Positions 9,671-57,523 of a DNA stretch of 64,000 nucleotides are shown piece after piece. The stretch spans positions 2,553 to 66,552 of the forward strand of contig JAFGDO010000002.1 of assembly GCA_016932045.1 (NCBI GenBank), in the 5' to 3' direction. The notes under the pieces were generated by a model. The model searched no databases. It saw only the letters and a program-made list of their open reading frames with translations, and had not been told where the DNA came from. The position numbers and the translations under genes are program-made. Positions within the stretch are counted from its first letter, which is position 1, and each line of letters starts with the position of its first letter. Source of the DNA: Candidatus Dojkabacteria bacterium. Lineage in GTDB: Bacteria > Patescibacteriota > Dojkabacteria > JAHIVN01.

Positions 9671-9711
9671 GTCATTCGTTTAACAATTACAATATTTTTA
9701 ATATCCAGTAA

Positions 9712-10272: not shown

Positions 10273-11295
10273 ATGGATATTCCGGTAAAAATCAAAAGTA
10301 TTCTAAATGATACACAAGAAATTCTGATAATAGTGTCAAGGCCAATTGATAATGATTGTATAGCAAGCGGGATAGGTCTAAAAAAACATTTTGAGAGAAA
10401 GGGGAAAAATGTTACGCTCATCTCACCAACTGTGTTACCCTCTTTTGTTGAGTCTTTTCCGCTTCATGAATTAGTTGAAGTACTAGATACAAGGGTTATG
10501 AGCTTCGAGAATTTTGATCTCATAATAGCTGTTGATGGGGGGAACACAAAGCAATTTGCCGAGGTTCAGCAAGATTCAGATTTCAATTTTGGTGGTAACA
10601 AAAATGTTCTAAATATTGACCATCATCTTGGAAATACTCATTTTGCAAAATACGAAATCTGGGATCCTTCTGTTTCTTCTACAACGGAACTTGTACTTTC
10701 AAAGATAATTGATATTAGAGAAATATCTAAGGACGAAGCAACCTTACTGTATGCAGGAATAGTTGGCGATACCGGAAACTTTAACTATGGATTTAGCAAA
10801 CAAACTCTCGAGTTTGCTGCACAGCTTTTTGCTAAGGGTGCAGATTTCAATCTGATTCTGAATGAGTATTTTTATAAGAATAAAGAAGAGCATTTTGATA
10901 TACTTGCCTGGATGATTCAAAACACGAGATACAACTTTGAGCTCGGATATTCTTATGTAATTCTGGAGTACGAAAGACTTGAAAAGAAATTCGATTGGGA
11001 TTATGAGGAGATAAAAGGCGGTATTCGGCTGTATGAGAATTACTTTTCCAGGGCTATAGAGGGCATGAATATCGGAATGGTAATCAAGGTAAAGAGGAAT
11101 AAGATAGATATTTCCATGAGAGGGAAGCAGAAGGTGAATAGAATTCCACTGCCTGAAATTGGAAAGGCTATGAACTGTGAAGTTGGGGGACACTTTAACT
11201 CTTCAGGTTTTAGTATCCAAGCAGACACTTCTGATTTTATAAATAGGATTGAACAAGTTATAAAAGATCTAAATGAAAAATATAAGAAGTCATGA
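10273..11295 (+). CDS. DHH/DHHA1 phosphoesterase (NrnA-like oligoribonuclease/pAp phosphatase)
   Basis: IIAVDGGN, NIDHHLGN (DHH motif) and GIVGDTGNF (DHHA1 GGH-like motif). Confidence 0.75.
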   Translation: MDIPVKIKSILNDTQEILIIVSRPIDNDCIASGIGLKKHFERKGKNVTLISPTVLPSFVESFPLHELVEVLDTRVMSFENFDLIIAVDGGNTKQFAEVQQDSDFNFGGNKNVLNIDHHLGNTHFAKYEIWDPSVSSTTELVLSKIIDIREISKDEATLLYAGIVGDTGNFNYGFSKQTLEFAAQLFAKGADFNLILNEYFYKNKEEHFDILAWMIQNTRYNFELGYSYVILEYERLEKKFDWDYEEIKGGIRLYENYFSRAIEGMNIGMVIKVKRNKIDISMRGKQKVNRIPLPEIGKAMNCEVGGHFNSSGFSIQADTSDFINRIEQVIKDLNEKYKKS

Positions 11296-18929: not shown

Positions 18930-21674
18930 ATGAAAAAATCAAGAGTTTGGATTCTGTTGCTTTTTATTTTCCTAGTAGGTCTCGGCGGAGCCGCTGTATG
19001 GATCGGCTGGCGTCTTCAACAGGAAGAAGAAGTTATTCCACAGGAAAGCGAAGCTGCAGCAGGTGACCATCAATGTATAGGTTACAATAACAATCCAGAT
19101 GATTGGGGGCATGTTGATTTTTGTTTATCTGGTACGAGTACTGCTTGTAATGAAGCACAGGCAGAATACTATGCAGGGAAAGGTTGCAGAGGATGTTGTT
19201 CAAAGATGATCCCTTGTACTAAACAACAAGTTGATTATGACAATGATTACAAAGTAGTCGTATACGGTCCTAATCCTGGTGGAGGAGAGTGGTGTAGGGA
19301 GTATCTACCGGGAGATGATGGGAGTCGGAAGTGTGGACGAGACACGCCTGATCCTGATACTTGGGACTGGACAAATTGTACTGTGTGCGATGATGTCCAA
19401 GCGGAATGGGATTTTGATTCGCAGCCCGGGAAAGTTGTTTTAAGAATTACAAGTGCAGCTATGCACGATATGGACAATATAAATAGCTCACATAATCAAG
19501 ATGATGTGCCAGCGATAATGTCAAAGCAAAGAATGAGAGTCGAAATAAATAGATATGACGCAGGGGGCAATGTCATAGGTTCAGCACAGAATATCTCAGG
19601 ACAATTAGAGTTCTTACCAGATAATTGTTCTTTAACCTATAAACTTGGGAAAAGTAACGCTGGTTGCAACTATGGGAGAGACTGTGCTATTGATCCGAAC
19701 GATCTTTGTTGTGATGGAAATGGCCCGCGATGGGGAACGTGGAATGGGGGCTATAGGTGTAATTTATCAAATACTAGAGAATACACCTTCGATGTTGATC
19801 GCAACGCAGATAGTTATGGATATACTTTCTATGTAGAGGGTTTTAGTCCATTTACCAACTCACAGTGGAAGACGGCTGATACTTGCAAGGGGTTTGTGGA
19901 TGCACCTGAGCAGTTTAATTGCGGAGATCCCTGTACAAATCCTCAGGGATCTTGTGATGACGGGAGTAATTGTATTGATCTTAGAGATATTATTCCAGCA
20001 GGAGAAGAAGCTTGTGATGGATATGTGTGTTGTGTAGGAGATGATTTCATTGATGAATTTGGTAATGTGAATTGTCCTTTCAGCGAACATGTAGCTAGTG
20101 GATGTAGATGTCTTGAAACTATTCAGTGTGACAGTATGTCCTCACCTCAGGCAGTTGGAGATACTATCACGGTGCAGCAGGAGGGTGATACATTCGTGAT
20201 TACAGTACAGGGAACAGATGGTGATGGAACGATCAGACAGATCTCCATATGTTCAGCTGTTGCAAATCAGCCAGATGAGTATTATCGGAGGGGACTAGAG
20301 GTATGGAATTGTGAGGAAACTCAATCTGCTGATAATACTTTTACAATTACTCGAACTTATGCATCATTAGTCGACGGTCAGGGTGATGATGATGTTTTAA
20401 ATCCTGATGGACTGGATATTAGTGCAAACAGCATAGTGTTCGCAGCTAATTTATGGGATGAGCCGGATAGAAGTATATTTTGCTCATCAAATCCAGGCTA
20501 TGGCGATACATCTCATGGTATTTTATATGGGAATTATTGTTCTCAGGATCCTGCCGCTTGTGACCTGTGTAACTTAGGAACAAATAGCTGTAGGATGATT
20601 TTACAACTGGCAGAAGAAGAGTGCGATTGTACTTCGATCCAGAGAAGTCCTAGTGGTGATACGATTGCCCCAGGAAGTAATGTATGGGTTCAAGTTACTG
20701 ATTCTTGTGAGATAGGCTATAGTGAAGTCGAATGGTTTTGGAGCGAAGGAGAAACTGGTACGCCTCAGCAGACGAACTTCAGTGATAGGATACCTGGGCC
20801 AAGTGATGATCCTGAGCTGAACCATAGCGTGATTTTTTCCGTTCCCGTAACAGCAAGCGGGACAATATGCATTTGGGCACGAACTCAAGGTGAGGATGAT
20901 CCTGATTGCCGGGATTGTTTTAATATTGGAGGCGAAGAGGAACCAGCTTACGCAGCAGTAAAGACGAGCGAGATGGTATGTATAAATAATAATAGTGCAG
21001 CAAGGATAACATATAGAATTCATGTAAGGAATATATCAGGAGTAGTAGGTACAATTGATTATGTAGAAGACACATATGATTCAAGGATACAAACAAGCTG
21101 GGTAAGCGGTATAAGCCCGCTTCCATATGAGCACACAGGAAACGTGATAAGGTGGGATAATAATGATACTGGATATGTCCTGCAGCCAAATGATGGTGCA
21201 GCTGGTGGAGCAGATGAGATAGAGTTCAGCTATATAGTGACAGTACCATCAGAATATTTTGGCACGTGGGAGGGAGGAGTATTTGTACCGTATCAGTATA
21301 GGAATCATGCTGTCGTCAAGCCGAGAGACGAGGAACCCATAGAACTGGCAACAGTAGTAAGTATTCAATGTGCCGTCGGTACAGGTATTTTTAGCAGTGC
21401 AGTGAAGGATATGTTAATTGGTCTAATACTTATTCTGCTTGGATTGACTATGATAAGGATACATGAAAGTACCTATAAATACCTTATACCAATAGAATAT
21501 GCATATAAAGAGAGTGTTATAGGTCTGAAAAATGGTGTAAATATGGTTAGAACTGAATGCAAAGCTGTACTAGATAAGTGTAAAACGTTTGTGTTTGAGA
21601 GGTTTAAGCTTACAAGCAAAGAAAGATTTGAACGTAAAATTGTAAGAAGAGCAGAAAAGAAAAAAGGGACCTAG
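18930..21674 (+). CDS. Giant Cys-rich surface protein (914 aa) with N-terminal signal-anchor, DUF11-like C-terminal module, C-terminal TM helix and basic cytoplasmic tail
   Basis: N-terminus MKKSRVWILLLFIFLVGLGGAAVWIGWRL. More than 60 Cys in the ectodomain. C-terminal TYRIHVRNISG...DYVEDTYD resembles the DUF11 conserved repeat. Then a TM helix IGLILILLGLTMI and the tail ...SKERFERKIVRRAEKKKGT. Confidence 0.6.
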   Translation: MKKSRVWILLLFIFLVGLGGAAVWIGWRLQQEEEVIPQESEAAAGDHQCIGYNNNPDDWGHVDFCLSGTSTACNEAQAEYYAGKGCRGCCSKMIPCTKQQVDYDNDYKVVVYGPNPGGGEWCREYLPGDDGSRKCGRDTPDPDTWDWTNCTVCDDVQAEWDFDSQPGKVVLRITSAAMHDMDNINSSHNQDDVPAIMSKQRMRVEINRYDAGGNVIGSAQNISGQLEFLPDNCSLTYKLGKSNAGCNYGRDCAIDPNDLCCDGNGPRWGTWNGGYRCNLSNTREYTFDVDRNADSYGYTFYVEGFSPFTNSQWKTADTCKGFVDAPEQFNCGDPCTNPQGSCDDGSNCIDLRDIIPAGEEACDGYVCCVGDDFIDEFGNVNCPFSEHVASGCRCLETIQCDSMSSPQAVGDTITVQQEGDTFVITVQGTDGDGTIRQISICSAVANQPDEYYRRGLEVWNCEETQSADNTFTITRTYASLVDGQGDDDVLNPDGLDISANSIVFAANLWDEPDRSIFCSSNPGYGDTSHGILYGNYCSQDPAACDLCNLGTNSCRMILQLAEEECDCTSIQRSPSGDTIAPGSNVWVQVTDSCEIGYSEVEWFWSEGETGTPQQTNFSDRIPGPSDDPELNHSVIFSVPVTASGTICIWARTQGEDDPDCRDCFNIGGEEEPAYAAVKTSEMVCINNNSAARITYRIHVRNISGVVGTIDYVEDTYDSRIQTSWVSGISPLPYEHTGNVIRWDNNDTGYVLQPNDGAAGGADEIEFSYIVTVPSEYFGTWEGGVFVPYQYRNHAVVKPRDEEPIELATVVSIQCAVGTGIFSSAVKDMLIGLILILLGLTMIRIHESTYKYLIPIEYAYKESVIGLKNGVNMVRTECKAVLDKCKTFVFERFKLTSKERFERKIVRRAEKKKGT

Positions 21675-21775
21675 TTGTTATTTCCTCACAAGGCAAATTG
21701 ATCATCTATGCACTTTTTTTCTGACGCATCTTATGTTATATTATCGGCATAGTAAATATTCGTATATTTTCTACG

Positions 21776-22903
21776 ATGAAGAGATCTAGAATTATCATGC
21801 TGGTTATCCTTTTTATAACCCTTATACTTGGTGGAGTAGCGATATGGCTGGGCTTGAGACTCGGGAAAGAAGAGGAAGTAACTCCAGAGGAAAGTGAGGC
21901 TGCATCAGAAGAGGTAACTAATGCTGATACGCTTAAAACTCAGGCGCAAAGAGAAGAATTTAACAGAAAATGGCAGACGTTTATTGCAGATGAAACTAAA
22001 ACTTGGAGGGACTATGTTGAATATGCAATGGGGGAAGGAGCTAGATACGAATGCACAAGAGTTATAATGAGTAATGTGGGAGCTGAAAGCCTCTATGGCT
22101 GTGATTTAAATGCGCTATTTGTTATTTATGATTTGCCAACCTATATTTCTACTCAGCCGATTGGTCCTCAGGATCCGAATTTAAATGCAGTACTTAATGA
22201 ACTGATAACTGACTCGGGTCTTCTGCAGAAAGCTGCTGAGATGGATATAATTACATTAGATGAGACATTTTTCAATTCCCCATCAAAAGATATGTTTGAA
22301 AGGTTTAGTAAGGTAGAAACTGCAAGGGTAGCCATAGGTGATCAGTTTGTGAAGCGTGTTGATTTTGAGGCGGTTGTAATTTACTTTCACAATGAATATG
22401 ATCCACAAATTCCTCTTGAGCAGGCGAAAGAAGCGGCAAAGACAAAGATGGATATTCTCTACGGGCGACTGGAGACAGGTGAAATCACGATGAGACAGGC
22501 AGGAGAAGAAATCATAAATGATAATATTCAAGGTGATACTACTGGAGTATCTCTGACTCAACTTGATCGATTGTACAAAGAGAATGCTTATATAGAAGTT
22601 ATAGGTCATGAGTTTGGGGAGAGAATTTTTAAAGATGAGGTTTATGATGAGGAGCTGCGAAGTCTTGGCGAAGGTCAGATGAGTACAGTAAGACTCTGCA
22701 AGGATTATAAATTTACCCCGGAGGAGTTATTTGAGGCAAATGGTGAGACTACTGAATTTCCACTAGTTGATAGCTGCTATATAATTTTTAAAGTAAATAA
22801 AATAACTTTTGGGCTGGGAAGAGAGTTTTCAGGAGATACATTGGAGGAGGTAGAAGATAGTATACAAGATAATTACGACCAAGCAGTGGACTATAATCTA
22901 TGA
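21776..22903 (+). CDS. Membrane-anchored/exported protein (375 aa) sharing the N-terminal anchor module of the 914-aa protein
   Basis: N-terminus MKRSRIIMLVILFITLILGGVAIWLGLRLGKEEEVTPEESEAA is paralogous to residues 1-45 of the 18930 gene. The rest is acidic and soluble. Confidence 0.5.
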   Translation: MKRSRIIMLVILFITLILGGVAIWLGLRLGKEEEVTPEESEAASEEVTNADTLKTQAQREEFNRKWQTFIADETKTWRDYVEYAMGEGARYECTRVIMSNVGAESLYGCDLNALFVIYDLPTYISTQPIGPQDPNLNAVLNELITDSGLLQKAAEMDIITLDETFFNSPSKDMFERFSKVETARVAIGDQFVKRVDFEAVVIYFHNEYDPQIPLEQAKEAAKTKMDILYGRLETGEITMRQAGEEIINDNIQGDTTGVSLTQLDRLYKENAYIEVIGHEFGERIFKDEVYDEELRSLGEGQMSTVRLCKDYKFTPEELFEANGETTEFPLVDSCYIIFKVNKITFGLGREFSGDTLEEVEDSIQDNYDQAVDYNL

Positions 22904-25446
22904 ATCATTTAAAAAATAAAACAATTTGTTTCATCTTTTTGTGTTTAGGAATTCTTGTATTCTCGTTTTTTCTTGTTATAAAGCCGAGTCCTGTATCTGC
23001 CGGTTCTGTACTTGATCATGAGTTTTATATAGAGATACCTACAGGTCGAAGAGTACCATTACAAGGAGCTTCGGTACATTCTGTAGGAGTTGATAATTAT
23101 GGTCAATGGGGGAATAAAGACTACATTACACGTTCAAATTATTGCGGTTATGGTAGTGCTGCAGGAGGAGCCCACTGCAGGACAAAAGCATCTTGCGATC
23201 ATTGGGGATATCATGCTCCATTTCTTCCAAAAAGTTACAATAGTGCATCAGACGTCTATACGCCAAGAGCGGATGTATATGGGTGGTGCGGGAATTTAGA
23301 TGCATCACATGCGCATTTCTATAATGGTCAAACGATGACACAGCGATTCCCTTGGTTTCCCTTTGAAAATGGGAATCCAAGAGGTTCGAGTACTTCATAT
23401 TGGACTGCTGAGATAGTTTCGCAGCAGAATAATAAGCTTCAATTATGGGGTAAAGCTCAGCCGGATGACCATGAAGCACGTAAAGCGACTGATGATTGCA
23501 GAAGAACGGACGAACGGGAAACTATATTGCAGGAATGGGGTAGATTAGACGATTTCCCGAACAAAGCTTCTTGGAAGCAGGGAGAGATTGTTTACGATGG
23601 AGTCGGAGGGAATGCTCTTCATGGAACCGTAAGATGGATTCTTCATGAAACACAGACTGTGTCAGACCTCAAGATAAGTGGCAAGGTTTATTGCCAAGAT
23701 GATGGAGATCCTACTCCTTATCCTGTTAATGGTGCAACTGTTTCTATATATAAAGATGGTGTGAAAGAAACTGTAGATGTTGCAACGAATGAAAGTGGAA
23801 ACTTTTCATATGATGCAAGATCATATGAGGGAGGTTTTGCTGTCAGATTTAAGAATTTACCAAGTGGGACTTTAAGAACCGGACTACCATATGATCAGAT
23901 GGTTGGTCCAACAGCTGTAAATTGTGCTAGTGGCGTTGTAACGGGTTGTCAAGAAGGTTCTCCTCCGGGAAGTTTCTGTGGGACGAACAATTTATCTTAT
24001 GAGTATTGCGGTCTTGGTAGTGGCAATCATTCAGGATTTGATTTCAGATATACTAATTGTTCAGCAGGATTGGTTTGTGAAAATTTGGCTTCAGATATTG
24101 ATCTTACCTCTATTAGCGAAGATGACTTAAGGGCGGAAGATATGGAAATTGCTATATCTGCAGAGATGAATGCAAATAATGTATCTGTAAGTTCAACTGG
24201 TGCCTATACTTATTACACAAACATCCCGGGTGCCTATTTCGCTGGTGATCCTGCTAATACTGGAAGCTATACAGATGGTCCAAATACGACAATTACAATT
24301 CCGGCAGGTACAAGTATTAGCGATGAAGACTACTTTGTCAGTGTAGTTATCCAGGGTAGCATAGGTTCAACTAATTATGCTTCTGGCTGCTATTCGACTG
24401 GAAATTGTGTACAAGGAGGTGAGAATTGTATTTTAGCATTTCAGCCTACAGCAGGAACGTGTGATTGCAGGAGTATGTCAGTTAGTCCTGATCCAACTAC
24501 AGTAAATCCTGTTGCTGGTTCAAATATTGTCTACCAGATAAATATTGCCGATACGAATGGAGTCCCGTGTAATGTAGAGGACAGTGAAATAAATTGGGAA
24601 GTATATGAGGGTAGTCCGACACTTGAAGTTATCGAGAGAGGTCCAACAACTGTTCCCGGGAATCCCGGACCGACTCACTATATTATATACAGAATTCCCG
24701 ATGGAGTTCCCGAAGGAACCCAGTATTGTGTCCGTGCCGAAGTGGATAATTTTGGAGTAAGAGAAGCGTGTAATGCTTGTTTTACGACAGGTACTGACGA
24801 GGTGCCTCTATTTGTTGCAGTAAAGACAAGTGAAGTTGTTTGTATTAATAACAATACAGCAGCACGAATTACTTATCGTATAAGAGTAAGAAATATATCG
24901 GGAATGGAGGGGATAATTGATTATGTTGAGGACACCTATGATTCAAGGATACAAACTAGTTGGGTGAGCAGTATTAGTCCGACTCCCTATGATCATACGG
25001 GGAATGTAATTAGGTGGGATAATAATGATACCGGATACACATTACAACCAAATGACGGAACTACGGGTGGAGCGGATGAGATGGAGTTCAGTTATATTGT
25101 GACAGTACCATCAGAATATTTTGGTACGTGGGAAGGTGGGGTATTTGTACCGTATCAATATAGGAATCATGCTATCGTCAAGCCAAGAGACCAAGGTCAG
25201 ATTGAACTCAGTACTGTTGTACAAATTCAATGTGCGGGTGTTACTACCGGTATTTTTGACAAAGCATTGACAAGTGTTTTGATAGGACTATTACTAGTTA
25301 TGTTTGGAGGAGTATTGCTAAAAGCTGATAGTTATGTTTATAGGTTCGTGCCTCAATTCAATTCTTATATTAAAAAAGTTATTCCTAGCAGGAAAGAAAG
25401 ATTTGAGAAAAAAGCGATAAAGAGAGTAGATGAGGGGGAGAAGTAG
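22900..25446 (+). CDS. Giant Cys-rich surface protein paralog (848 aa), signal peptide plus DUF11-like C-terminal module plus TM plus basic tail
   Basis: The C-terminal roughly 150 aa are about 85% identical at protein level to the 914-aa protein (VKTSEVVCINNNTAARITYRIRVRNISG...FGTWEGGVFVPYQYRNHAIVKPRD). TM helix LIGLLLVMFGGVLL and tail ...PSRKERFEKKAIKRVDEGEK. Confidence 0.6.
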   Translation: MNHLKNKTICFIFLCLGILVFSFFLVIKPSPVSAGSVLDHEFYIEIPTGRRVPLQGASVHSVGVDNYGQWGNKDYITRSNYCGYGSAAGGAHCRTKASCDHWGYHAPFLPKSYNSASDVYTPRADVYGWCGNLDASHAHFYNGQTMTQRFPWFPFENGNPRGSSTSYWTAEIVSQQNNKLQLWGKAQPDDHEARKATDDCRRTDERETILQEWGRLDDFPNKASWKQGEIVYDGVGGNALHGTVRWILHETQTVSDLKISGKVYCQDDGDPTPYPVNGATVSIYKDGVKETVDVATNESGNFSYDARSYEGGFAVRFKNLPSGTLRTGLPYDQMVGPTAVNCASGVVTGCQEGSPPGSFCGTNNLSYEYCGLGSGNHSGFDFRYTNCSAGLVCENLASDIDLTSISEDDLRAEDMEIAISAEMNANNVSVSSTGAYTYYTNIPGAYFAGDPANTGSYTDGPNTTITIPAGTSISDEDYFVSVVIQGSIGSTNYASGCYSTGNCVQGGENCILAFQPTAGTCDCRSMSVSPDPTTVNPVAGSNIVYQINIADTNGVPCNVEDSEINWEVYEGSPTLEVIERGPTTVPGNPGPTHYIIYRIPDGVPEGTQYCVRAEVDNFGVREACNACFTTGTDEVPLFVAVKTSEVVCINNNTAARITYRIRVRNISGMEGIIDYVEDTYDSRIQTSWVSSISPTPYDHTGNVIRWDNNDTGYTLQPNDGTTGGADEMEFSYIVTVPSEYFGTWEGGVFVPYQYRNHAIVKPRDQGQIELSTVVQIQCAGVTTGIFDKALTSVLIGLLLVMFGGVLLKADSYVYRFVPQFNSYIKKVIPSRKERFEKKAIKRVDEGEK

Positions 25447-41936: not shown

Positions 41937-42620
41937 ATGAGAAATTATAATAGAGATAGTAGATCTGGCAGCGGAAGATACTCTCAAGATAGAAAGCCTT
42001 CAATGTACAAAGCCATATGCGCCGAATGTGGGAGGAGTTGTGAGGTACCTTTTAAACCAAGAGGTGATAAGCCTGTTTACTGTAGTGAATGTTTCGAACA
42101 TCAATCAGGCGGCAGGTCAGAAAGATCAAGGGGAGGGGATTCAAGAAGACGAGATTACAAAGAGAAGAGAATGTATACTGCAACATGTGATGAATGCGGG
42201 ATTGAATGCAGAGTCCCGTTTAGGCCTACAGGGGGGAAACCGGTTTATTGTGATGCTTGTTTTAAAGGTGACAGTGGTACTAGTAAAAAGATCAGTGGTT
42301 TAGGTGATAGCAGCGGATTGCAGAAACAAATTGAAATTCTTAATTCTAAACTTGAAGTTATTATCCATTTGTTAGAGTCTTCTAGCGTAAGTAAGAAAAA
42401 CAACAGAGAAGAGGCAACTCAAGATGTAAAGAAACAAGAAGTGACGAAGAAACCTAGTAAAAGTGCTGTGAAGAAGAGTAAAACGAGAAAACCAGCCAAA
42501 GGCGGGTCTGCTTCTAGTGTAGGTACAAGTTCAAAGGTTAAAGGTAAAAAGACTACTAGAAGAAAAGCAGCTACGAAAAAAACTACAAAAAAGAAAGCAG
42601 TGAGCAAGAAGAAAAAATAG
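41937..42620 (+). CDS. Tandem CxxC-CxxC zinc-ribbon protein with Lys-rich histone-H1-like C-terminal tail
   Basis: Two repeats of C-x2-C-x3-C-x-VPF+P-x-G-x-KPVYC-x2-CF, then the tail KKTTRRKAATKKTTKKKAVSKKKK. Confidence 0.55.
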   Translation: MRNYNRDSRSGSGRYSQDRKPSMYKAICAECGRSCEVPFKPRGDKPVYCSECFEHQSGGRSERSRGGDSRRRDYKEKRMYTATCDECGIECRVPFRPTGGKPVYCDACFKGDSGTSKKISGLGDSSGLQKQIEILNSKLEVIIHLLESSSVSKKNNREEATQDVKKQEVTKKPSKSAVKKSKTRKPAKGGSASSVGTSSKVKGKKTTRRKAATKKTTKKKAVSKKKK

Positions 42621-42759: not shown

Positions 42760-44634
42760 TCACAGTCCAAGTTGTCTTCTTGCATAATCACTTAATACCT
42801 TCCTTCTTGCCCATTTTCTTTGAGTATGAGAAAGGTATACTTTACGCAGTCTTAAAAAATGTGGAGTAACCTCCAACATCTCCTCATTTTCCAAAAAAGA
42901 AAATGCAAAATCTATCGTTATGGGGATTAGAGGTCTAAGAATAGACTGGGTGATTTCATCATGTCGTATTCTGTGAGCAGATTTATGCCTTTCCCTTGTC
43001 ACATCGACCTCCAAATCTTGTTCATATTTATGAATACCTATAATCATACCTTCATATACTAAAGTCTTGGGACCGGTAAATAAATCTCCTCTTTCTTGTA
43101 TAGAATTCAAAGAATAACCCAAGGCCGTACCACTTGTAGCAGAGATTAATACTCCATTCCTTTTTTTTACTTTCTTCCCTGAGTAGGGAACATACTTTAA
43201 AAAAGAACTTTGCATAACAGCCGAACCCTTGGTATCCCTCATCAATTTACTCCTAAGTCCCAAAATATCACGGGTTAATATTTTATAAGTAAATTTAGCT
43301 ATTCCATTTTCTGTTTCTAGGTTTTCTAGTTTGGCATTTCGTGAACTTAGTTGTGTCGTGATTGTACCAATATAATTATCCCCGACAGTAATCACTAACT
43401 CTTCAAGAGGTTCCATTCTTGTATTTTTCTCTATCTTATATACAACTTCCGGTTTCCTAATTTGAAACTCGTAGCCTTCTCTCCTCAAAGTTTCAATCAA
43501 AATTCCAAGCTGTAATTCTCCTCTTCCTGCGATATCAAATCCGCCCTTATCGTTTTTTTCTATCTTCAACGCAATGTTTACTTCTTTCTCTTCTAGAAGT
43601 CTTCGCTCTATTTGCTTCATTGTTACACATTTGCCGTCTTGCCCGACCAAAGGGGAAGTGTTTTCCTCTAGTGTAATCTTCATTGAGGGGGGAGTAATCT
43701 GAATATCTGATATTGGAGAAAGGTTACTTGGATCACACAAGGTCCAGCTGATATCTGCTGAGTCAATACCGGAAACAGCAGCTATTTCCCCGGCCTGAAC
43801 ACATTCTACATTAACCATATTCAAACCCTCTCTAACTCGTAGACATTTTACCGTTCCTGATTTTTTAGAATTACTGTCAGGAGAAACTAATTGAACAGAA
43901 TCTCCTATATTGATTGTGCCTTGTTTTACAGTGCCAACTATAAACCTTCCAAAATGCTCGTCATAATCAAGAGAACTTACCTGCATTTGAAACGGCTTAT
44001 CTGGATCACCATCCGGGACTGGGATTGAATTAATGATTTCATCCAGTAAGATTGTTATATCACCTTTTGTTTCTGAAACATTTGGGGGCAAATCCTTAAA
44101 CACCTTCCCCTCACGCCCAATTGCATAAAGGATCGGGAAATTTAATTGATCTTCGTCTTTTGCTATGGATAGAAAAAGATCGTTTATTTTGTCAAGTGTC
44201 TTCTTTGGATTTGCCAGTTTTTTATCGATCTTATTGATAACCACTATTATTTTTAAATTCATCTCAAAAGCTTTTCTTAATACAAACTTTGTCTGCACCA
44301 TAGGTCCTTCTTGTGCATCAACGATCAGTAAGCAGCCGTTAACCATATTTAGAATTCTCTCGACTTCTCCTCCGAAATCAGCATGACCAGGAGTATCAAT
44401 TATATTGATCTTATAGCCGTTGTATCTCACCGATGTGTTTTTCGCTTTAATTGTGATGCCTTTTTCTCTTTCCAGTTCAAATGAATCAAGTATCTGGCTT
44501 TTAGCCATTTCAATTTGATTTTCTCTAAAAACATGTGTTTGCTTTAAAAAAGCATCAATCAAAGTGGTTTTACCATGATCAACATGGGCAATAACAGCAA
44601 TATTCCTAATTTTGTCTTGTGTGACAATATCCAA
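42760..44634 (-). CDS. typA: Translational GTPase TypA/BipA
   Basis: G1 AHVDHGKTTL, G3 DTPGHADFGGEVER and NKID. 624 aa with an EF-G-like domain layout. Confidence 0.85.
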   Translation of the reverse strand: MDIVTQDKIRNIAVIAHVDHGKTTLIDAFLKQTHVFRENQIEMAKSQILDSFELEREKGITIKAKNTSVRYNGYKINIIDTPGHADFGGEVERILNMVNGCLLIVDAQEGPMVQTKFVLRKAFEMNLKIIVVINKIDKKLANPKKTLDKINDLFLSIAKDEDQLNFPILYAIGREGKVFKDLPPNVSETKGDITILLDEIINSIPVPDGDPDKPFQMQVSSLDYDEHFGRFIVGTVKQGTINIGDSVQLVSPDSNSKKSGTVKCLRVREGLNMVNVECVQAGEIAAVSGIDSADISWTLCDPSNLSPISDIQITPPSMKITLEENTSPLVGQDGKCVTMKQIERRLLEEKEVNIALKIEKNDKGGFDIAGRGELQLGILIETLRREGYEFQIRKPEVVYKIEKNTRMEPLEELVITVGDNYIGTITTQLSSRNAKLENLETENGIAKFTYKILTRDILGLRSKLMRDTKGSAVMQSSFLKYVPYSGKKVKKRNGVLISATSGTALGYSLNSIQERGDLFTGPKTLVYEGMIIGIHKYEQDLEVDVTRERHKSAHRIRHDEITQSILRPLIPITIDFAFSFLENEEMLEVTPHFLRLRKVYLSHTQRKWARRKVLSDYARRQLGL

Positions 44635-44804: not shown

Positions 44805-45932
44805 TTAGCAATATCCTCTGCTTCCATAATTCACCTTTGTATAAATTGCAGTATACATCTTGTTTGCATCTGCCTTAGTTAAGGTCTTTGAGAGATGCCT
44901 TAGTGTTATTCTAACTAAAACATTCTTCTGATCATCACTGCAACCCAACCTATCTTTAGCAACCTTTGGTAAATCTCTATACTCTATCTCATCCAGCACT
45001 TTTACACTTTCAAGGATATCTTCTTGTTTACCGAGGGCATTTCTTATGTCATCATTTATATCCTCTTCTACGTAACCTCTTGGTACACAGTAAGACATAT
45101 CGCGGCTGATAGAAGGCTGATCAGAGACTTCCCTGTACTTTTCTAGATTCTGCATTTGCTCGGCAATACGAGTATTATCCGACCTTATATAACGGATATC
45201 ATCCATGTCCTTCTTTGTCATTACCAATCTATCAAGACCCATTCCCATTGCCCAACCTGAGTATATATCAGGATCAAGTCCTGCGTTATTTAATATCTCA
45301 TCATTTATCAATCCTGATTCAAGAATTTCAATGTCCCGGTCATCTTTTACTACATTAACTTCAACTCCCTTTCTCGTATATGGATGGGGCATATCTACAA
45401 TTCGTTCTTTCCAGCCGGGAGCCGCAAGTGTGATGATACCTCGAATAACCTTCATCAAATCGTCTTGGGATATATGTGTCTTGCCTCCTTTTACAACTCG
45501 CCATACATCAAGCTGATGACAAACGCCAAGGTGAATCTTATCTGTAATATCTCTTCTGTAGACAAGTCCAGGTAGCATAATAACAACATCTTTCCATTCA
45601 GGATCTTTTGAAAGTTTCTTGAGAATATCCAGCATCTTTGCTGATGTATGAGTTCTAAGCATTCTTTTCTTATCCACATAATGGGTATAGGTTGAGGACC
45701 TGCTAGTGTTGTCTTTTGGAATCAATAGCTTGTCATAGTTATCTTCGATGTTTACAATCGGATTCAGCCGGTAAACTAGGACTTCGCTATCTGGATGATG
45801 CTTTTTCATGTACTCCCTGATTTCAAGATACAACAGCTTAATTGCATGATCCTTTTTGCATTTTGTTAGATCTTTAATTTCTAGATACTTCTTCAGTTCT
45901 GCCTTTTTTATTGGTTTGATATGAATATTCAT
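44805..45932 (-). CDS. Monomeric phenylalanyl-tRNA-synthetase-like protein: PheS-type class II catalytic core fused to a C-terminal FDX-ACB anticodon-binding domain
   Basis: Motif 2 YRRDITDKIHLGVCHQLDV (PheS pattern [FY]RRDxxDxTHxxxFHQxEG). Motif 3 GWAMGMGLDRLVM. C-terminal YREVSDQPSISRDMSYCVP...VLDEIEYRD...KNVLVRITLRHLSKTLTKADAN follows the FDX-ACB pattern. Confidence 0.65.
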   Translation of the reverse strand: MNIHIKPIKKAELKKYLEIKDLTKCKKDHAIKLLYLEIREYMKKHHPDSEVLVYRLNPIVNIEDNYDKLLIPKDNTSRSSTYTHYVDKKRMLRTHTSAKMLDILKKLSKDPEWKDVVIMLPGLVYRRDITDKIHLGVCHQLDVWRVVKGGKTHISQDDLMKVIRGIITLAAPGWKERIVDMPHPYTRKGVEVNVVKDDRDIEILESGLINDEILNNAGLDPDIYSGWAMGMGLDRLVMTKKDMDDIRYIRSDNTRIAEQMQNLEKYREVSDQPSISRDMSYCVPRGYVEEDINDDIRNALGKQEDILESVKVLDEIEYRDLPKVAKDRLGCSDDQKNVLVRITLRHLSKTLTKADANKMYTAIYTKVNYGSRGYC

Positions 45933-46264
45933 AGTAGTAAATAGTTAAAAGTAATATGAAATGAATGAAAATGTGTAGTAATAATTTGTGTGAAATGAGT
46001 ATTATCGCCGGTTAAACGGCGAAGAAGTTGGAAAAAGACTGAGAAGAATCAACAGACGTAGCAATAATTACCTCTTTCTTATGAAGCTTTTGAACAAGTA
46101 TTTCTATCTGTTTACTTCTTTTCATAACAAAGAGATTATACCTTAGAATAGATGGTAAATTCAATAAATTCTATATAGTTGTTGGGAGGAAATAATACTC
46201 AAGGATCTTAGTATAAATGAAATCCTTATTACTTCCTATGTATATGTGTGTTTAAAGTAGTATT

Positions 46265-46297
46265 ACAAAAGAAGGTCTTTCCCAGGAAAGACCTTCT
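46265..46297 (-). terminator. Rho-independent terminator downstream of the repeat-protein gene
   Basis: Minus-sense GAAGGUCUUUCC-CUG-GGAAAGACCUUC (12-bp perfect stem) followed by UUUUGU. Confidence 0.55.
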
Positions 46298-46317: not shown

Positions 46318-46878
46318 TTACTTTGAGCCTTTTATCGCGGTTTCAATCACATCTTTTGGTAATGCGGCTGCTGTGAGTAATGCATTTCTTACAGCTTTTC
46401 CAGCTTCTTCACCAACACCATCAGCTGCTTTGATGACTCCGCTAACAGCAGCACCTGCAGCATCTGAGGTACTTACGCCTACATCTTTTGCTCCATCAAT
46501 TGCCCCTTGCACTATTTCAACTGCCATTTCTTCAAGATTGGATCCGATCTTAGCACCACTTGATAGTGCACTTTCGGCAGCACTTGTAATTGCATTCATA
46601 ACATCACCACCCGCATCAGAGACACCTTTTATAACGCTAGATAATGTACCCTTCACAGCATCTACAATTGATACTCCAACCTGGCTTGCTCCTTCTATTG
46701 CACCTTTTGTAACATTCACAACTGCATCCATTGCGCCTTGTGCAGTAGCACCGACATCTGAAAGAGCTCCGGTCAATTGATTTTTAACAGCATCACGAAT
46801 AGCTGTTAGTACATCATCTGCTCCTTTAATTGCAGCTACAACCGCATCCTTTGTCTCGGTTATTAGTGTATCGAACAT
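46318..46878 (-). CDS. Hendecad (11-residue) repeat protein, Ala/Val/Gly-rich, about 16 tandem 11-mers (LEA/apolipoprotein-like periodicity)
   Basis: Units such as TKDAVVAAIKG, ADDVLTAIRDA, VVNVTKGAIEG, VKGTLSSVIKG and AVEIVQGAIDG have conserved positions 1, 4/5, 8 and 11. No signal peptide. Confidence 0.5.
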   Translation of the reverse strand: MFDTLITETKDAVVAAIKGADDVLTAIRDAVKNQLTGALSDVGATAQGAMDAVVNVTKGAIEGASQVGVSIVDAVKGTLSSVIKGVSDAGGDVMNAITSAAESALSSGAKIGSNLEEMAVEIVQGAIDGAKDVGVSTSDAAGAAVSGVIKAADGVGEEAGKAVRNALLTAAALPKDVIETAIKGSK

Positions 46879-56182: not shown

Positions 56183-57523
56183 CTATCTAACCTGCTTGCT
56201 GACTAAACTTGGCCAGCTATAGTCCAGAAACGGCTTATTCTTGCCTTGGTCTAGAATCCTTTCTACTGCATTCATGAATTCCTGCATATTTCCCTCTGCT
56301 TGTAGTTCTTTCAGCCCAATTACAAAAGAGAATGGGATAAGATCTTCTTTTGCTTGTTTTACTCTCTTCCCAACACTTAAATCACGATCATCAATATCTA
56401 GCCGAACAGCTTTCTGTTTTAAATTCTTTTGTATTGCAATGCAGTGTCTCAGGTACTTCCTTCCAAGCGGTATTAATCTGATTTGTATGGGATATAACCA
56501 CAAAGGGAAGCACTCTTCAAAGTTATCAAAGAGCATGTACAAGAATCGATCTATCCCGCCTGGTACAGCAGCATGGATTATAACCGGATGATGAACCTTA
56601 TTTTGTTTGTCAATGTACTCAATACCAAGTCTATGGGCGTTCCCTACATCTATTTGAATGCATCCTATTTCTCTTGACTGTCCAAGTCTATCCATGATCT
56701 TGTAATCAACATTGATTATCCAATACCGGTCTTTTTCATCTTTGTTAATCTCAACAAGAATATCTCTTTTCCCATCTTTTGCCATTTTAACGATAGAATT
56801 CTCATACTTTTCAAAGTCTGATTCTGATCCTATCTCAGCTATAACTTCGTATTTTCTATTTACCTCTTTTGCAGCTTGCAGAATCTGTCTTTCAATTCTT
56901 GGATACCATTCAAATGCTTCATTCACACTCTTAAAATAAGGGTGAAGATCAGGCATAAAGAATCTCCTTAGGCGGTAAAAGAGCATACATTCTCCACTTT
57001 GTTCATGTCTGTAGCAATCCGATATAGAAAAATGAGCAATTGGCAAGTCTTTGTAGCTAAGTTTGTATTTGCCTGCCAGGTTGAATTGAGGGTAACTTGC
57101 ATCATAACTCATGACCACTTCTTTCTTTCCAGACTTAAATCTGAACAACCTATCACCATAGAGTTTTGCATATGCCTCTACAACCGGATAAGACATATCA
57201 AAGACATTTGACCCTCTTACCTCATAGATTGGGAAGCCTATTTCAACAACGAGCTGTCTTGCATATTCCTTCAGCAACCTCATAACGAGCCATGCTTTGT
57301 AATCATACTGCATAAAGCCTATATCTGCATTCGGTTCCCAATTAAATCCGAGCTTATCTGCATGTTTCAAGTATTCTGATTTCTGTCTGGAACCGATACT
57401 CATCCCAAAGGCCTCCTTCTCAACAAATTTTCGGAAGTTCTTTGAGGGTTTTTGATTCTTCAAGAATTCTTTTGGATCAAAAATTTTCCCTCTTCTATTT
57501 ATAACCAAGTAGTTGTTTTTCAT
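56183..57523 (-). CDS. Class IIa aminoacyl-tRNA synthetase, threonyl-tRNA-synthetase-like catalytic core plus anticodon-binding domain, lacking the N-terminal editing/TGS domains
   Basis: Motif 2 SDCYRHEQSGECMLFYRLRRFFMPDLHPYF aligns with ThrRS ([27 protein letters not shown]), including the Zn-ligand Cys and His. Motif 3 HHPVIIHAAVPGGIDRFLYML. C-terminal RLDIDDRDLSVGKRVKQAKEDLIPFSFVIG is an HGPT-type anticodon-binding domain. Confidence 0.6.
   Translation of the reverse strand: MKNNYLVINRRGKIFDPKEFLKNQKPSKNFRKFVEKEAFGMSIGSRQKSEYLKHADKLGFNWEPNADIGFMQYDYKAWLVMRLLKEYARQLVVEIGFPIYEVRGSNVFDMSYPVVEAYAKLYGDRLFRFKSGKKEVVMSYDASYPQFNLAGKYKLSYKDLPIAHFSISDCYRHEQSGECMLFYRLRRFFMPDLHPYFKSVNEAFEWYPRIERQILQAAKEVNRKYEVIAEIGSESDFEKYENSIVKMAKDGKRDILVEINKDEKDRYWIINVDYKIMDRLGQSREIGCIQIDVGNAHRLGIEYIDKQNKVHHPVIIHAAVPGGIDRFLYMLFDNFEECFPLWLYPIQIRLIPLGRKYLRHCIAIQKNLKQKAVRLDIDDRDLSVGKRVKQAKEDLIPFSFVIGLKELQAEGNMQEFMNAVERILDQGKNKPFLDYSWPSLVSKQVR

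What the first reader, a model, noticed from the sequence alone, without database searches (positions are those of the whole stretch)
44805..45932. Stand-alone 'mitochondrial-type' monomeric PheRS architecture (PheS catalytic core plus FDX-ACB anticodon-binding domain) in a bacterial context
Seen directly: the motif 2 and motif 3 blocks fit PheS alpha-subunit consensus very closely. The C-terminal 100 aa match the FDX-ACB (ferredoxin-fold anticodon-binding) pattern at three separate blocks (SRDMSYCVP; LDEIEYRD; TLTKADAN). From established knowledge, canonical bacterial PheRS is an (alpha-beta)2 enzyme in which FDX-ACB belongs to PheT. Fusion of FDX-ACB to the catalytic alpha core is the hallmark of monomeric organellar PheRS. 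No pheT is adjacent (typA lies downstream and an unrelated repeat protein upstream). A hairpin (46001-46020, minus leader) precedes it. Either this organism uses a minimal monomeric PheRS (interesting for reduced genomes) or this is a paralog with a non-canonical role.
Basis: partly seen in the sequence, partly recalled or inferred. Interest (0 to 1): 0.6.

Follow-up and report, generated by a model that had tools for sequence, protein, structure and literature searches.

The report
PheRS-like "mystery ligase" SrmL gene
This gene encodes a one-piece relative of phenylalanyl-tRNA synthetase built like the mitochondrial enzyme, but it belongs to SrmL, a widespread bacterial family of unknown function whose substrate pocket and anticodon-contact residues are changed, so it is probably not the cell's ordinary Phe-tRNA synthetase.

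Summary
ORF 44805-45932 (-) encodes a 375-aa protein with a class IIc PheS-type core fused to an FDX-ACB domain. Its predicted fold matches human mitochondrial PheRS (TM 0.72). No pheT lies nearby.

The protein is not an orphan. It passes NCBIfam NF051887, "PheS-related mystery ligase SrmL" (410.7 bits, cutoff 300), and fails both PheRS models. The window comes from a Candidatus Dojkabacteria MAG.

SrmL occurs in thousands of protein clusters. These include Myxococcota, Longimicrobium, Gammaproteobacteria, an Azotobacter and a Glutamicibacter plasmid, a 635-kb phage, and a tight Saccharibacteria/Dojkabacteria clade. Its closest relatives outside the family are mitochondrial-type PheRS.

The ATP-binding arginines are kept. 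The Phe-clamping FPF motif is an invariant HPY, a Glu, a Trp and a Lys are newly invariant, and the four residues that read tRNAPhe G34 are replaced family-wide.

No conserved neighbour, partner tRNA or leader RNA was found.

Best reading: an accessory, horizontally mobile adenylate-forming ligase that acts on an RNA other than tRNAPhe. Its substrate is unknown.

I could not test whether canonical pheST exists elsewhere in this MAG. This is a new member of a catalogued but uncharacterised family.

The parts
44805..45932 (-). srmL coding sequence (375 aa), a PheS-related 'mystery ligase'
   Evidence: ORF list. NCBIfam NF051887 scores 410.7 bits against a cutoff of 300. The sequence is identical to NCBI hypothetical protein JW766_00565 from Candidatus Dojkabacteria.
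45744..45932 (-). N-terminal region (residues 1-63) with the conserved YL..DLT....HA motif; aligns with the N-terminal segment of human mitochondrial PheRS
   Evidence: phmmer alignment to 5mgh_A, query residues 28-146. Invariant columns of alignment A1.
45153..45743 (-). Class IIc catalytic core (residues 64-260). Motif 2 is PGLVYRRD...HQLDVW (R126, D128, H134). Motif 3 is GWAMGMGLDR (A228, R235).
   Evidence: Pfam PF01409, E 6.8e-31. Column-by-column comparison with canonical, mito-type and SrmL groups.
45375..45386 (-). Family signature H183-P-Y185-T186. It replaces the FPF(T/V) phenyl-ring clamp of bacterial and mitochondrial PheRS.
   Evidence: His in 36 of 36 and Tyr in 35 of 36 aligned SrmL sequences, against Phe/Phe in canonical PheS. 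Role of Tth Phe258/Phe260 taken from PMC3275996.
44832..45125 (-). C-terminal ferredoxin-fold (FDX-ACB) domain, residues 270-367
   Evidence: Pfam PF03147, 35.9 bits against 31.1. The model shows beta-alpha-beta-(alpha)-beta-alpha with pLDDT 78-95. Whole-chain Foldseek match to 3cmq.
44931..44972 (-). SrmL-specific insert in the FDX-ACB domain (residues 321-334, LPKVAKDRLGCSDD; family consensus LPxxAxERLGxxxx, followed by the invariant QKN)
   Evidence: Alignment of anticodon-binding domains. The insert is present in all SrmL sequences and absent from PheT B8 and mito-type domains. Predicted as an extra helix, residues 323-329.
46135..46164 (-). Promoter-like site (TTGAAT-18-TATAAT, 10 of 12 matches), about 200 nt upstream of the start codon
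   Evidence: Consensus scan. This is only a consensus match. The number of such sites in the region is not above the shuffle expectation.
46001..46020 (-).
   Evidence: Sequence. Leader folding z-score -0.56. No Rfam match.

Best explanation
The gene encodes a member of the SrmL family (NCBIfam NF051887, 'PheS-related mystery ligase').

Shown:
- It is a single-chain class IIc aminoacyl-tRNA-synthetase homologue with the domain plan and predicted fold of mitochondrial PheRS.
- It sits in a monophyletic, strongly conserved bacterial family.
- That family is distinct from both canonical PheS and mitochondrial-type PheRS.

Inferred mechanism:
- The motif 2 and motif 3 arginines and the surrounding class II scaffold are intact. 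The protein therefore most likely still uses ATP to form an acyl- or aminoacyl-adenylate.
- The phenylalanine clamp is remodelled. FPF becomes an invariant HPY, a Gly becomes an invariant Glu, and the F293- and F295-equivalent aromatics are replaced (L/W and M/L/S). The activated substrate is therefore probably not plain phenylalanine. A more polar, possibly aromatic, amino acid is a reasonable guess.
- The highly conserved FDX-ACB domain argues that the acceptor is an RNA, most likely a tRNA.
- The four residues that read G34 of tRNAPhe are replaced family-wide (the window keeps only the Asp), and a conserved 10-12-residue insert is added. That RNA is therefore probably recognised differently from tRNAPhe(GAA).

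The gene is an accessory and horizontally mobile one, not the housekeeping PheRS. The true substrate and acceptor remain unknown.
For: Family membership:
- NF051887 scores 410.7 bits (cutoff 300). pheS_mito scores 163.9 (below 258) and pheS scores 104 (below 237).
- Plasmid, proteobacterial, myxobacterial and Saccharibacteria homologues score 412-537 bits on the same model. FPFT-type proteins score 219-253, below the cutoff.

Fold:
- pLDDT 88.4.
- TM 0.72 to 3cmq/5mgv.

Phylogeny (NJ, 201 core columns, 200 bootstraps):
- SrmL is monophyletic at 100%.
- The CPR clade has 100% support and is nested inside SrmL.
- The mito-type group is the nearest outgroup.

Active site:
- Kept: R126, D128, H134, R235, A228.
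- Changed: F248(Ec) to H183 (36/36), F250 to Y185 (35/36), G271 to E205 (36/36), L212 to W144 (36/36), Y307 to K241 (36/36).
- Changed: adenine-stacking F206 to Pro, or to Cys/Ile/Val/Thr in the CPR clade (Cys138 in the window); 4 of 27 non-CPR members keep Phe and one has His.
- Changed: H149 to N, G, D or S.

Anticodon-binding domain:
- Human D364, F366, S375 and R414 are conserved in PheT B8 and mito-type domains. D364G abolishes activity (PMC7540514).
- In SrmL they correspond to Ser (Asp in the window), Thr (Ile in the window), invariant Asn337, and no conserved Arg.
- A conserved insert is added.

Accessory and mobile character:
- Present in Saccharospirillum mangrovi, Cystobacter, Hyalangium, Anaeromyxobacter and Longimicrobium.
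- On an Azotobacter plasmid between IS elements.
- On a Glutamicibacter plasmid beside cmx.
- Truncated between erm(X) and tet(65) on a C. diphtheriae plasmid.
- In a 635-kb phage.
- No conserved neighbourhood in 49 CPR loci or 9 other loci.
- Only 49 loci among 185,579 GTDB species genomes.

A hint of tRNA-level function: an AlaX-like trans-editing gene lies immediately downstream in three divergent Saccharibacteria loci.
Against: - No biochemical data exist for any family member. No paper mentioning SrmL was found in the library.
- Replacing the two clamp phenylalanines does not by itself exclude Phe specificity. Cytosolic PheRS has Asn/Tyr at these positions and still binds Phe (PMC3275996).
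- The window protein, unlike most of the family, keeps Gln140 and an Asp at the D364-equivalent position.
- Four of 27 non-CPR members keep the motif 2 Phe.
- No candidate partner tRNA was found near any locus.
- Residue equivalences rest on sequence alignment and strand register, not on a superposed structure.
- The presence of canonical pheS/pheT in this particular MAG was not verified.
Confidence: 0.55

Rival explanations
1. Auxiliary but genuine PheRS. SrmL charges tRNAPhe with phenylalanine as a second, monomeric, editing-free enzyme. It would be kept as a back-up or as a resistance copy, for example one insensitive to a PheRS inhibitor or to Phe analogues. That would explain why it travels on plasmids, in resistance islands and in a huge phage.
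For: - The class II catalytic residues are kept, as is Ala228 (E. coli A294), the specificity-determining floor of the Phe pocket.
- The closest relatives outside the family are mitochondrial-type PheRS.
- The FDX-ACB domain is retained and conserved.
- Copies sit next to cmx, erm(X) and tet(65), and in a huge phage, a type of element I recall often carries aaRS genes.
- Cytosolic PheRS shows that Asn/Tyr can replace the FPF clamp.
Against: - All four G34-contact positions of the anticodon-binding domain are changed across the family (the window keeps only the Asp). In the human enzyme D364G alone kills activity.
- The aromatic residues at the F248, F293 and F295 equivalents are replaced in every aligned sequence (F293 is Trp in the CPR clade, as in mito-type enzymes), and the motif 2 F206 equivalent in all but 4 of 36. 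No compensating aromatic appears at the Val286/Phe438-equivalent position, which is Ile or Ala.
- It fails both curated PheRS models, and NCBI curators name it a mystery ligase.
- A resistance copy has no obvious reason to re-engineer anticodon recognition.
Confidence: 0.2
2. Sole, minimal PheRS of a reduced genome. The Dojkabacteria and Saccharibacteria lineages that carry SrmL have lost pheST and rely on this monomer.
For: - No pheS or pheT lies in the 64-kb window or in 663 kb of SrmL-bearing CPR loci.
- The CPR clade is very strongly conserved, at about 60% identity between Dojkabacteria and Saccharibacteria.
- Its GC content is like that of its surroundings.
Against: - The same orthologous family, with the same signature residues, lives in multi-megabase Myxococcota and Gammaproteobacteria genomes and on dispensable plasmids. 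It cannot be the only PheRS there.
- Only 49 loci were found among all GTDB species. No record title is a named cultivated Saccharibacterium, so most CPR genomes lack it.
- Canonical PheT does exist in Patescibacteria.
- Some MAGs carry two copies.
- The G34-reading residues are not conserved.
Confidence: 0.05
3. Adenylate-forming ligase whose acceptor is not an RNA. It would work like EpmA/PoxA (a LysRS paralog that modifies EF-P) or the SerRS-like amino acid:carrier-protein ligases. The FDX-ACB domain would be re-used as a protein- or ligand-binding module.
For: - The G34-contact residues are lost and a new conserved insert appears in the FDX-ACB domain.
- No partner tRNA was found.
- Translation factors are sometimes nearby: typA adjacent in the window, and efp 8 kb away in S. 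mangrovi.
- There is precedent for aaRS paralogs with non-tRNA acceptors (from my own knowledge).
Against: - No neighbour, including typA and efp, is conserved across loci.
- No carrier-protein, NRPS or other biosynthetic partner is seen.
- The FDX-ACB beta-sheet motifs (RDxS, RITLR) that form the RNA-binding face stay highly conserved.
- An AlaX-type tRNA-editing gene is adjacent in three loci, which points to tRNA chemistry.
Confidence: 0.12
4. Catalytically dead pseudo-synthetase with a regulatory or RNA-binding role only, comparable to HisZ-type aaRS paralogs.
For: - The motif 2 adenine-stacking Phe is lost in most members.
- The His of the HPxR motif is lost.
- In some Saccharibacteria members the Glu/Asp of HQxE is Gly.
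Against: Motif 2 Arg126/Asp128/His134, motif 3 Gly-x-Gly-x-x-Arg235 and the TxT/S loop are invariant or nearly so across about 36 divergent sequences. So are new pocket residues (His183, Glu205). That pattern is typical of an active site under selection.
Confidence: 0.05

Closest known systems
NCBIfam NF051887, 'PheS-related mystery ligase SrmL' (equivalog model)
   Same: The window protein matches the model end to end (residues 20-368 against model positions 2-347 of 349) at 410.7 bits, above the 300-bit cutoff. It shares every family-specific residue I could define: H183, Y185, E205, W144, K241, the QKN motif and the FDX-ACB insert.
   Different: The window protein belongs to the most divergent branch, the Saccharibacteria/Dojkabacteria clade.
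- That clade scores about 410 bits, against 450-540 for other members.
- It has Trp227 where others have Leu.
- It has Asp200 where others have Trp.
- It has Cys/Ile/Val where others have Pro at the motif 2 Phe position.
- Part of the clade has HMLE instead of HQxD.

The family has a name but no known function.
Mitochondrial phenylalanyl-tRNA synthetase (FARS2; TIGR00469; PDB 3CMQ, 3TUP)
   Same: - It has the same single-chain plan: an N-terminal segment, a class IIc core and a C-terminal FDX-ACB domain.
- It gives the best PDB sequence hit (E ~1e-27) and fold hit (TM 0.72).
- It is the nearest outgroup in the tree.
- It shares Arg/Lys at the position after the motif 2 Arg. The CPR clade also shares Trp before Ala228.
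   Different: - It scores 163.9 on TIGR00469, below the cutoff of 258.
- The FPF clamp, the motif 2 Phe, the HPxR His and the Gly of LGxG are replaced.
- The G34-binding Asp364, Phe366, Ser375 and Arg414 are not conserved.
- It has an extra 10-12-residue insert in the anticodon-binding domain.
- It lacks the roughly 60-residue segment that human PheRS has between the two aligned blocks.
Bacterial heterotetrameric PheRS (PheS TIGR00468 and PheT TIGR00472)
   Same: - The catalytic core is homologous to the PheS A1/A2 domains (E ~1e-20 to E. coli and S. haemolyticus chains).
- The C-terminal domain is homologous to the B8 domain of PheT.
   Different: - It lacks the N-terminal coiled coil of PheS.
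- It has no beta subunit, so it has no B3/B4 editing site.
- It has none of the B1, B2, B5, B6 or B7 domains.
- It scores 104 bits on the PheS model, below the cutoff of 237.
- The pocket and anticodon-contact residues differ.
Other class IIc enzymes that changed specificity (PylRS, SepRS), and aaRS paralogs with non-canonical acceptors (EpmA/PoxA, GluQRS/YadB)
   Same: - They set a precedent: a PheRS-type core can evolve a new amino-acid specificity, and free-standing aaRS paralogs can act on something other than the cognate tRNA 3' end (from my own knowledge).
- There is a weak PylS C-terminal match of 23.8 bits.
   Different: - There is no significant similarity beyond the shared class II core.
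- No pyl or Sep pathway genes or suppressor tRNA lie nearby.
- This is an analogy only, not membership.

Membership tests
SrmL (NCBIfam NF051887) | Whole-protein HMM score at or above the curated equivalog cutoff of 300 bits | tested here: met
   410.7 bits, E 4.8e-123, residues 20-368 against model positions 2-347 of 349.
SrmL (NCBIfam NF051887) | Placement inside the monophyletic SrmL clade, apart from mito-type and canonical PheS | tested here: met
   NJ tree on 201 core columns. SrmL bipartition 100% and CPR clade 100% of 200 bootstraps.
SrmL (NCBIfam NF051887) | Family-specific residues as defined here: H-P-Y-T, Glu in LExG, Trp after HQxD, Lys after motif 3, QKN, and the LPxxAxERLG insert | tested here: met
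   H183, Y185, T186, E205, W144, K241, Q335-K336-N337 and insert residues 321-334 are all present.
Functional PheRS (any form) | Curated PheRS model score (TIGR00468 pheS, cutoff 237.45; TIGR00469 pheS_mito, cutoff 258.35) | tested here: not met
   104 bits and 163.9 bits respectively.
Functional PheRS (any form) | Class II ATP-binding residues: motif 2 Arg and motif 3 Arg | tested here: met
   R126 and R235 are invariant in all groups.
Functional PheRS (bacterial or mitochondrial type) | Aromatic clamp for the phenyl ring (Tth Phe258/Phe260, equal to E. coli F248/F250) and the motif 2 adenine-stacking Phe (E. coli F206) | tested here: not met
   His183, Tyr185 and Cys138 in the window. His in 36/36 and Tyr in 35/36 across SrmL. 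Canonical PheS is Phe/Phe in 6/6, and mito-type is 15/17 and 13/17. Residue roles from PMC3275996. Cytosolic PheRS also departs from FPF, so this weakens the Phe-specificity claim but does not abolish it.
Functional PheRS (bacterial or mitochondrial type) | G34-recognition set of the FDX-ACB/B8 domain (human Asp364, Phe366, Ser375, Arg414) | tested here: not met
   The window has Asp314, Ile316, Asn337 and Arg372. The family consensus is Ser, Thr, Asn and no conserved Arg. PheT and mito-type domains conserve D-x-[YF], S and the C-terminal LR. Residue roles from PMC7540514.
Functional PheRS (housekeeping) | Being the only PheRS gene of the genome, or co-existing with pheST | not testable with these tools
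   - Only the 64-kb window, and a 25-kb Logan contig lying within it, were reachable.
- The last protein search showed only that PheT exists in WS5 and other Patescibacteria, not in this MAG.
FDX-ACB (Pfam PF03147) domain | Pfam gathering score and a ferredoxin-like fold | tested here: met
   35.9 bits against 31.1. Predicted beta-alpha-beta-(alpha)-beta-alpha at pLDDT 78-95. Whole-chain structural match to 3cmq, including its anticodon-binding domain.
Known anti-phage defence systems (PADLOC) | A match to any PADLOC model | tested here: not met
   No family matched at E <= 0.01 for SrmL or its two upstream neighbours.

The most novel reading that the evidence does not exclude
SrmL may be a fourth functional branch of class IIc synthetases, beside PheRS, SepRS and PylRS. 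It would be a monomeric enzyme that activates a non-phenylalanine substrate, possibly a polar or modified aromatic amino acid. It would attach that substrate to a tRNA or other RNA read through a re-engineered FDX-ACB domain.

This would give its hosts, which include ultra-small CPR bacteria, plasmids and a huge phage, an as yet unknown RNA-aminoacylation activity.

Because SrmL is the closest bacterial relative of the mitochondrial-type enzyme, it may also mark the bacterial lineage from which monomeric FARS2-type PheRS arose, or the reverse.
Probability: 0.3. Interest if true: 0.85.

Novelty: new member of a known kind. Interest (0 to 1): 0.5.

Why it matters
A review in the library calls monomeric mitochondrial PheRS the only known monomeric aaRS containing the class II catalytic module (PMC3275996). 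This window shows that the same architecture exists in bacteria as a large, conserved and horizontally mobile family. The family's active site and RNA-reading surface have both been rebuilt, and no function is known for it.

Working out what SrmL ligates to what could have several consequences:
- It could reveal a new aminoacylation chemistry or a new translation-linked accessory function.
- It would bear on the origin of FARS2.
- It would stop such genes from being mis-annotated as 'PheS alpha chain' or counted as duplicated marker genes in CPR genome-quality estimates.

For this window alone the result is more modest. The gene is a divergent CPR member of a family that NCBI curators have already flagged as a mystery.

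Tried and rejected
1. Looking for canonical pheS/pheT in the same genome.
- The first genome-contig scan, with the single protein, found nothing.
- Look-ups of window-edge proteins, meant to walk along the 134-kb contig, failed because of start-codon mismatch.
- The look-up of SrmL itself returned only a 25-kb Logan contig lying inside the window.
- A metagenome scan with a canonical PheS alignment returned only close, non-CPR relatives.
- A viral-contig scan did the same.
- The last protein search, with the PheT of locus L139 (candidate division WS5), showed that PheT exists in Patescibacteria.

2. Conserved gene neighbourhood as a clue to function. None was found across 49 CPR loci and 9 other loci. 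The typA adjacency is unique to the window.

3. A dedicated or suppressor tRNA next to srmL. None was found.

4. A T-box or other leader RNA. There is no Rfam match and no unusual folding.

5. A defence-system role. There is no PADLOC match.

6. Literature. No paper mentions SrmL or describes a bacterial mitochondrial-type PheRS paralog.

7. The idea that ORFs 21776-22903 (375 aa) and 22900-25446 (848 aa) are a hidden pheS-pheT pair. They have no NCBIfam match and no tblastn similarity to PheS or PheT.

8. The first Biopython bootstrap run timed out. It was replaced by a numpy NJ implementation.
Full report
**What is there**

The window carries an ATG-started ORF of 375 codons at 44805-45932 on the minus strand, exactly as reported. 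Pfam finds the class II 'F' core (PF01409, residues 64-260, E 6.8e-31). It also finds the ferredoxin-fold anticodon-binding domain (PF03147, residues 270-367, 35.9 bits against a gathering score of 31.1).

The best PDB sequence matches are the human mitochondrial PheRS chains (E ~1e-27). Bacterial PheS chains follow at about 1e-20.

An AlphaFold2 model built on 26 homologues has mean pLDDT 88.4. Foldseek places it on 3cmq/5mgv with TM 0.72 over about 389 columns, which covers both domains. It matches the closed form (3cmq) better than the tRNA-bound open form (3tup, TM 0.59).

typA lies downstream at 42760-44634. An Ala/Gly/Val-rich 186-aa ORF lies upstream at 46318-46878. That upstream gene is followed by a strong stem-loop plus T-run at about 46267-46296, read directly from the sequence.

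The small hairpin at 46001-46020 exists. However, the leader folds no better than shuffles (z = -0.56), and it matches no Rfam family.

**It already has a family name**

NCBIfam scores the protein at 410.7 bits on NF051887, 'PheS-related mystery ligase SrmL'. This is an equivalog model with a cutoff of 300. The protein falls below the cutoffs of pheS_mito (163.9, cutoff 258) and pheS (104, cutoff 237).

The identical sequence is a 'hypothetical protein' (JW766_00565) of a Candidatus Dojkabacteria MAG, on a 134-kb contig. None of seven full-text searches found a paper describing the family.

**Distribution**

Close homologues, at about 60% identity, are abundant in Saccharibacteria and Dojkabacteria metagenome bins. 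A scan of one genome per GTDB species found 49 loci, almost all labelled Saccharibacteria, Saccharimonadales, Dojkabacteria or Patescibacteria.

An exhaustive HMMER search of 1.8 billion cluster representatives found 106 representatives below 1e-30. Many are full-length proteins of 360-420 aa at 30-45% identity.

A profile search then returned 2972 clusters below 1e-20. They include proteins that NCBI or UniRef name SrmL, from these organisms:
- Hyalangium gracile
- Anaeromyxobacter oryzisoli
- Kaarinaea lacus
- Longimicrobium
- Saccharospirillum mangrovi (3.69-Mb chromosome)

The Cystobacter fuscus homologue in the same list is annotated as a PheS alpha chain, but it scores 537 bits on the SrmL model.

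Full-length homologues also occur on mobile elements:
- On an Azotobacter chroococcum 308-kb plasmid, between IS630 and IS3 transposases.
- On a Glutamicibacter nicotianae plasmid, directly after the cmx chloramphenicol efflux gene.
- As a truncated copy between erm(X) and tet(65) on a Corynebacterium diphtheriae plasmid.
- In a 635-kb uncultured phage.

All the representatives I tested pass the SrmL cutoff at 412-537 bits. The family is therefore accessory and mobile. It coexists with the ordinary PheRS in organisms where that enzyme is certainly present. The universality of pheST in such bacteria is established knowledge and was not tested here.

**Relationship to PheRS**

I built a neighbour-joining tree on 201 catalytic-core columns. 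It included 36 SrmL sequences, 17 'mito-type' sequences and 6 canonical PheS. The results were as follows:
- SrmL is a single clade (100% of 200 bootstraps).
- The CPR sequences form a tight clade (100%) nested within SrmL.
- The mito-type proteins are the nearest outgroup.
- Mean distances are 1.55 from SrmL to mito-type, 1.69 from SrmL to canonical PheS, and 1.24 from mito-type to canonical PheS.
- The mito-type set is not resolved as monophyletic, so the direction of descent cannot be read from this tree.

The mito-type set itself is mixed. It contains an insect FARS2-like protein. It also contains an Oligoflexia MAG protein and short metagenomic proteins, and giant-virus contigs carry similar ORFs. 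The PheS-core plus FDX-ACB fusion is therefore not restricted to organelles.

**Active site**

I aligned the groups against E. coli PheS. Its T251 and A294 positions were verified on the K-12 sequence. The comparison shows which residues SrmL keeps:
- The motif 2 Arg, Asp and His (R126, D128, H134).
- The T-x-T/S loop.
- Motif 3 G-x-G-x-x-R (R235).
- The pocket-floor Ala (A228, equal to E. coli A294).

It also shows what SrmL replaces at positions that are invariant in both canonical and mito-type enzymes:
- F248 becomes H183 (36/36).
- F250 becomes Y185 (35/36).
- G271 becomes E205 (36/36).
- L212 becomes W144 (36/36).
- Y307 becomes K241 (36/36).
- F295 becomes Met, Leu or Ser.
- F293 becomes Leu, or Trp in the CPR clade.
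- The adenine-stacking F206 becomes Pro, or Cys/Ile/Val/Thr in the CPR clade (Cys138 in the window). Four of 27 non-CPR members keep Phe and one has His.
- The His of the HPxR motif becomes N, G, D or S.

In Thermus PheRS the two Phe of FPF clamp the substrate ring edge-to-face (PMC3275996). That review also notes that cytosolic PheRS uses Asn/Tyr plus a compensating Phe at the Val286 position. SrmL has Ile or Ala at that position, so no such compensation is visible.

The pattern is an intact adenylation scaffold with a pocket that has become more polar and less aromatic.

**Anticodon-binding domain**

Human mitochondrial PheRS reads G34 with Asp364, Phe366 (Tyr731 in Thermus beta), Ser375 and Arg414. 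D364G abolishes charging (PMC7540514).

I confirmed the numbering on the 3cmq construct and aligned several groups. These were eight PheT C-termini from metagenome loci, E. coli PheT, the mito-type proteins and SrmL.
- PheT and mito-type domains conserve D-x-[YF], the Ser, and the C-terminal L-R.
- SrmL has Ser (Asp in the window and its nearest relatives), Thr (Ile in the window), an invariant Asn (QKN), and no conserved C-terminal Arg.
- SrmL also has a conserved 10-12-residue insert, LPxxAxERLG. The model predicts it as an extra helix.

The register is fixed by ungapped beta-strands on both sides. The rest of the domain is highly conserved.

The domain is therefore under selection, most plausibly still for RNA binding, but not for the tRNAPhe G34 contacts known from PheRS.

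**Context**

No gene is conserved next to srmL. This holds for the 49 CPR loci and for nine loci from other phyla. Several of those loci look like accessory or mobile regions. No tRNA gene recurs nearby, and no suppressor-type tRNA is seen. PADLOC finds nothing.

Two weak leads emerged.
- An AlaX-like trans-editing gene (tRNA-synt_2c C-end plus tRNA_SAD) lies 28-105 bp downstream on the same strand in three Saccharibacteria loci. The SrmLs of one of them (L027) and the other two share only 62% identity (L029 and L035 share 76%). A fourth locus has one 3 kb away.
- A Replic_Relax gene abuts srmL in L011, L014 and L020 and lies two genes away in L029; the first three SrmLs are 91-92% identical, so this may be a single lineage.

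**What could not be done**

The decisive check is whether pheS and pheT exist elsewhere in this MAG. I could not do it.
- The window and 663 kb of CPR loci contain none. That is a small sample of those genomes.
- All routes to the rest of the genome failed or were capped.
- One search shows only that canonical PheT, including an odd ~945-aa form with an NlpC/P60 insert, is present in WS5 and other Patescibacteria.

**Verdict**

The protein is a CPR-branch member of the SrmL family. It is an accessory class IIc ligase that most likely still makes an adenylate and still binds an RNA. It has lost the hallmarks of phenylalanine clamping and of tRNAPhe G34 recognition.

My probability estimates are:
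- About 0.55 for that mechanistic reading.
- About 0.2 for a genuine auxiliary PheRS.
- About 0.05 for a sole minimal PheRS.
- About 0.12 for a non-RNA acceptor.
- About 0.05 for a dead pseudo-enzyme.

It is a new member of a catalogued but functionally unknown family. The family, rather than this locus, is where the interest lies.

Noticed in passing
L027:11216-11956, L029:4392-5129, L035:11144-11869 (also L048:6846-7574): An AlaX-like trans-editing protein (Pfam tRNA-synt_2c C-end plus tRNA_SAD) lies 28-105 bp downstream of srmL on the same strand in three Saccharibacteria loci. SrmL identity is 62% between L027 and the other two (76% between L029 and L035). A fourth locus has one 3 kb away. 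This is more than I would expect by chance for a single-copy gene.
   Followed up: partly
L057 (Glutamicibacter plasmid NZ_CP142605, 7983-9101); L059 (C. diphtheriae plasmid OV884290, ~6001-6630); L056 (Azotobacter plasmid NZ_CP066311, 7989-9101): SrmL homologues (38% identity, HPYT signature, 515-524 bits on NF051887) sit in resistance or mobile regions of plasmids. One lies directly after a cmx chloramphenicol efflux gene. A truncated copy lies between erm(X) and tet(65). A third lies between IS630 and IS3 transposases.
   Followed up: partly
L058 (uncultured phage LR745206.1, 634,780 bp; ORF ~8001-9077 of the locus): A huge phage encodes a full-length SrmL homologue with an HYYT signature. 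It groups with metagenomic protein P0124.
   Followed up: partly
L158-L163 (IMG/VR giant-virus and other viral contigs); P0260 (Oligoflexia MAG); P0244: FPFT-type single-chain PheRS-like proteins of about 345-415 aa occur outside eukaryotes, in a bacterial MAG and on giant-virus contigs. This is the true mitochondrial type, and some pass the TIGR00469 cutoff. Monomeric PheRS is therefore not strictly organellar.
   Followed up: partly
P0427, P0429, P0445 and about 30 others: A group of PheT beta subunits of about 945 aa carries an inserted NlpC/P60 (PF00877) domain. One of them is labelled 'Patescibacteria group bacterium'.
   Followed up: no
L011, L014, L020 (gene at +1, opposite strand), L029 (+2): A Replic_Relax (PF13814) family gene, typical of plasmids and mobile elements, abuts srmL in L011, L014 and L020 and lies two genes away in L029. 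The first three SrmLs are 91-92% identical.
   Followed up: partly
L014 and L019 (same MAG, CAZTOK01); L023 and L024 (same MAG, CAYQBK01): Two separate srmL-bearing contigs occur within single MAGs. This means either real duplicates or mixed strains in the bins.
   Followed up: no
window 41937-42620 (+): A 227-aa protein has two CxxC-x17-CxxC zinc-ribbon repeats (TIGR04272, 115.9 bits) and a long Lys/Ser/Thr-rich tail. It converges on typA.
   Followed up: no
window 46318-46878 (-): A 186-aa Ala/Gly/Val/Asp-rich repeat protein has no NCBIfam, Pfam or PADLOC match. It shows only weak similarity to phage tape-measure repeats (PHROG E ~1e-8). It is followed by a strong terminator-like hairpin at about 46267-46296.
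   Followed up: partly
window 18930-25446 (+): Three consecutive large ORFs (914, 375 and 848 aa) have no NCBIfam match at E <= 1e-12. The last two overlap by 4 bp. They looked like a possible pheS-pheT pair by size, but they are unrelated to PheS or PheT by tblastn.
   Followed up: partly
window 56183-57523 (-): A 446-aa class II aaRS (tRNA-synt_2b plus HGTP_anticodon) is present. Its amino-acid specificity was not determined.
   Followed up: no
L053 (Anaeromyxobacter oryzisoli), 9249-10739: An Amidase-family (PF01425, GatA-like) gene starts 34 bp after srmL on the same strand. This was seen in only one locus.
   Followed up: no
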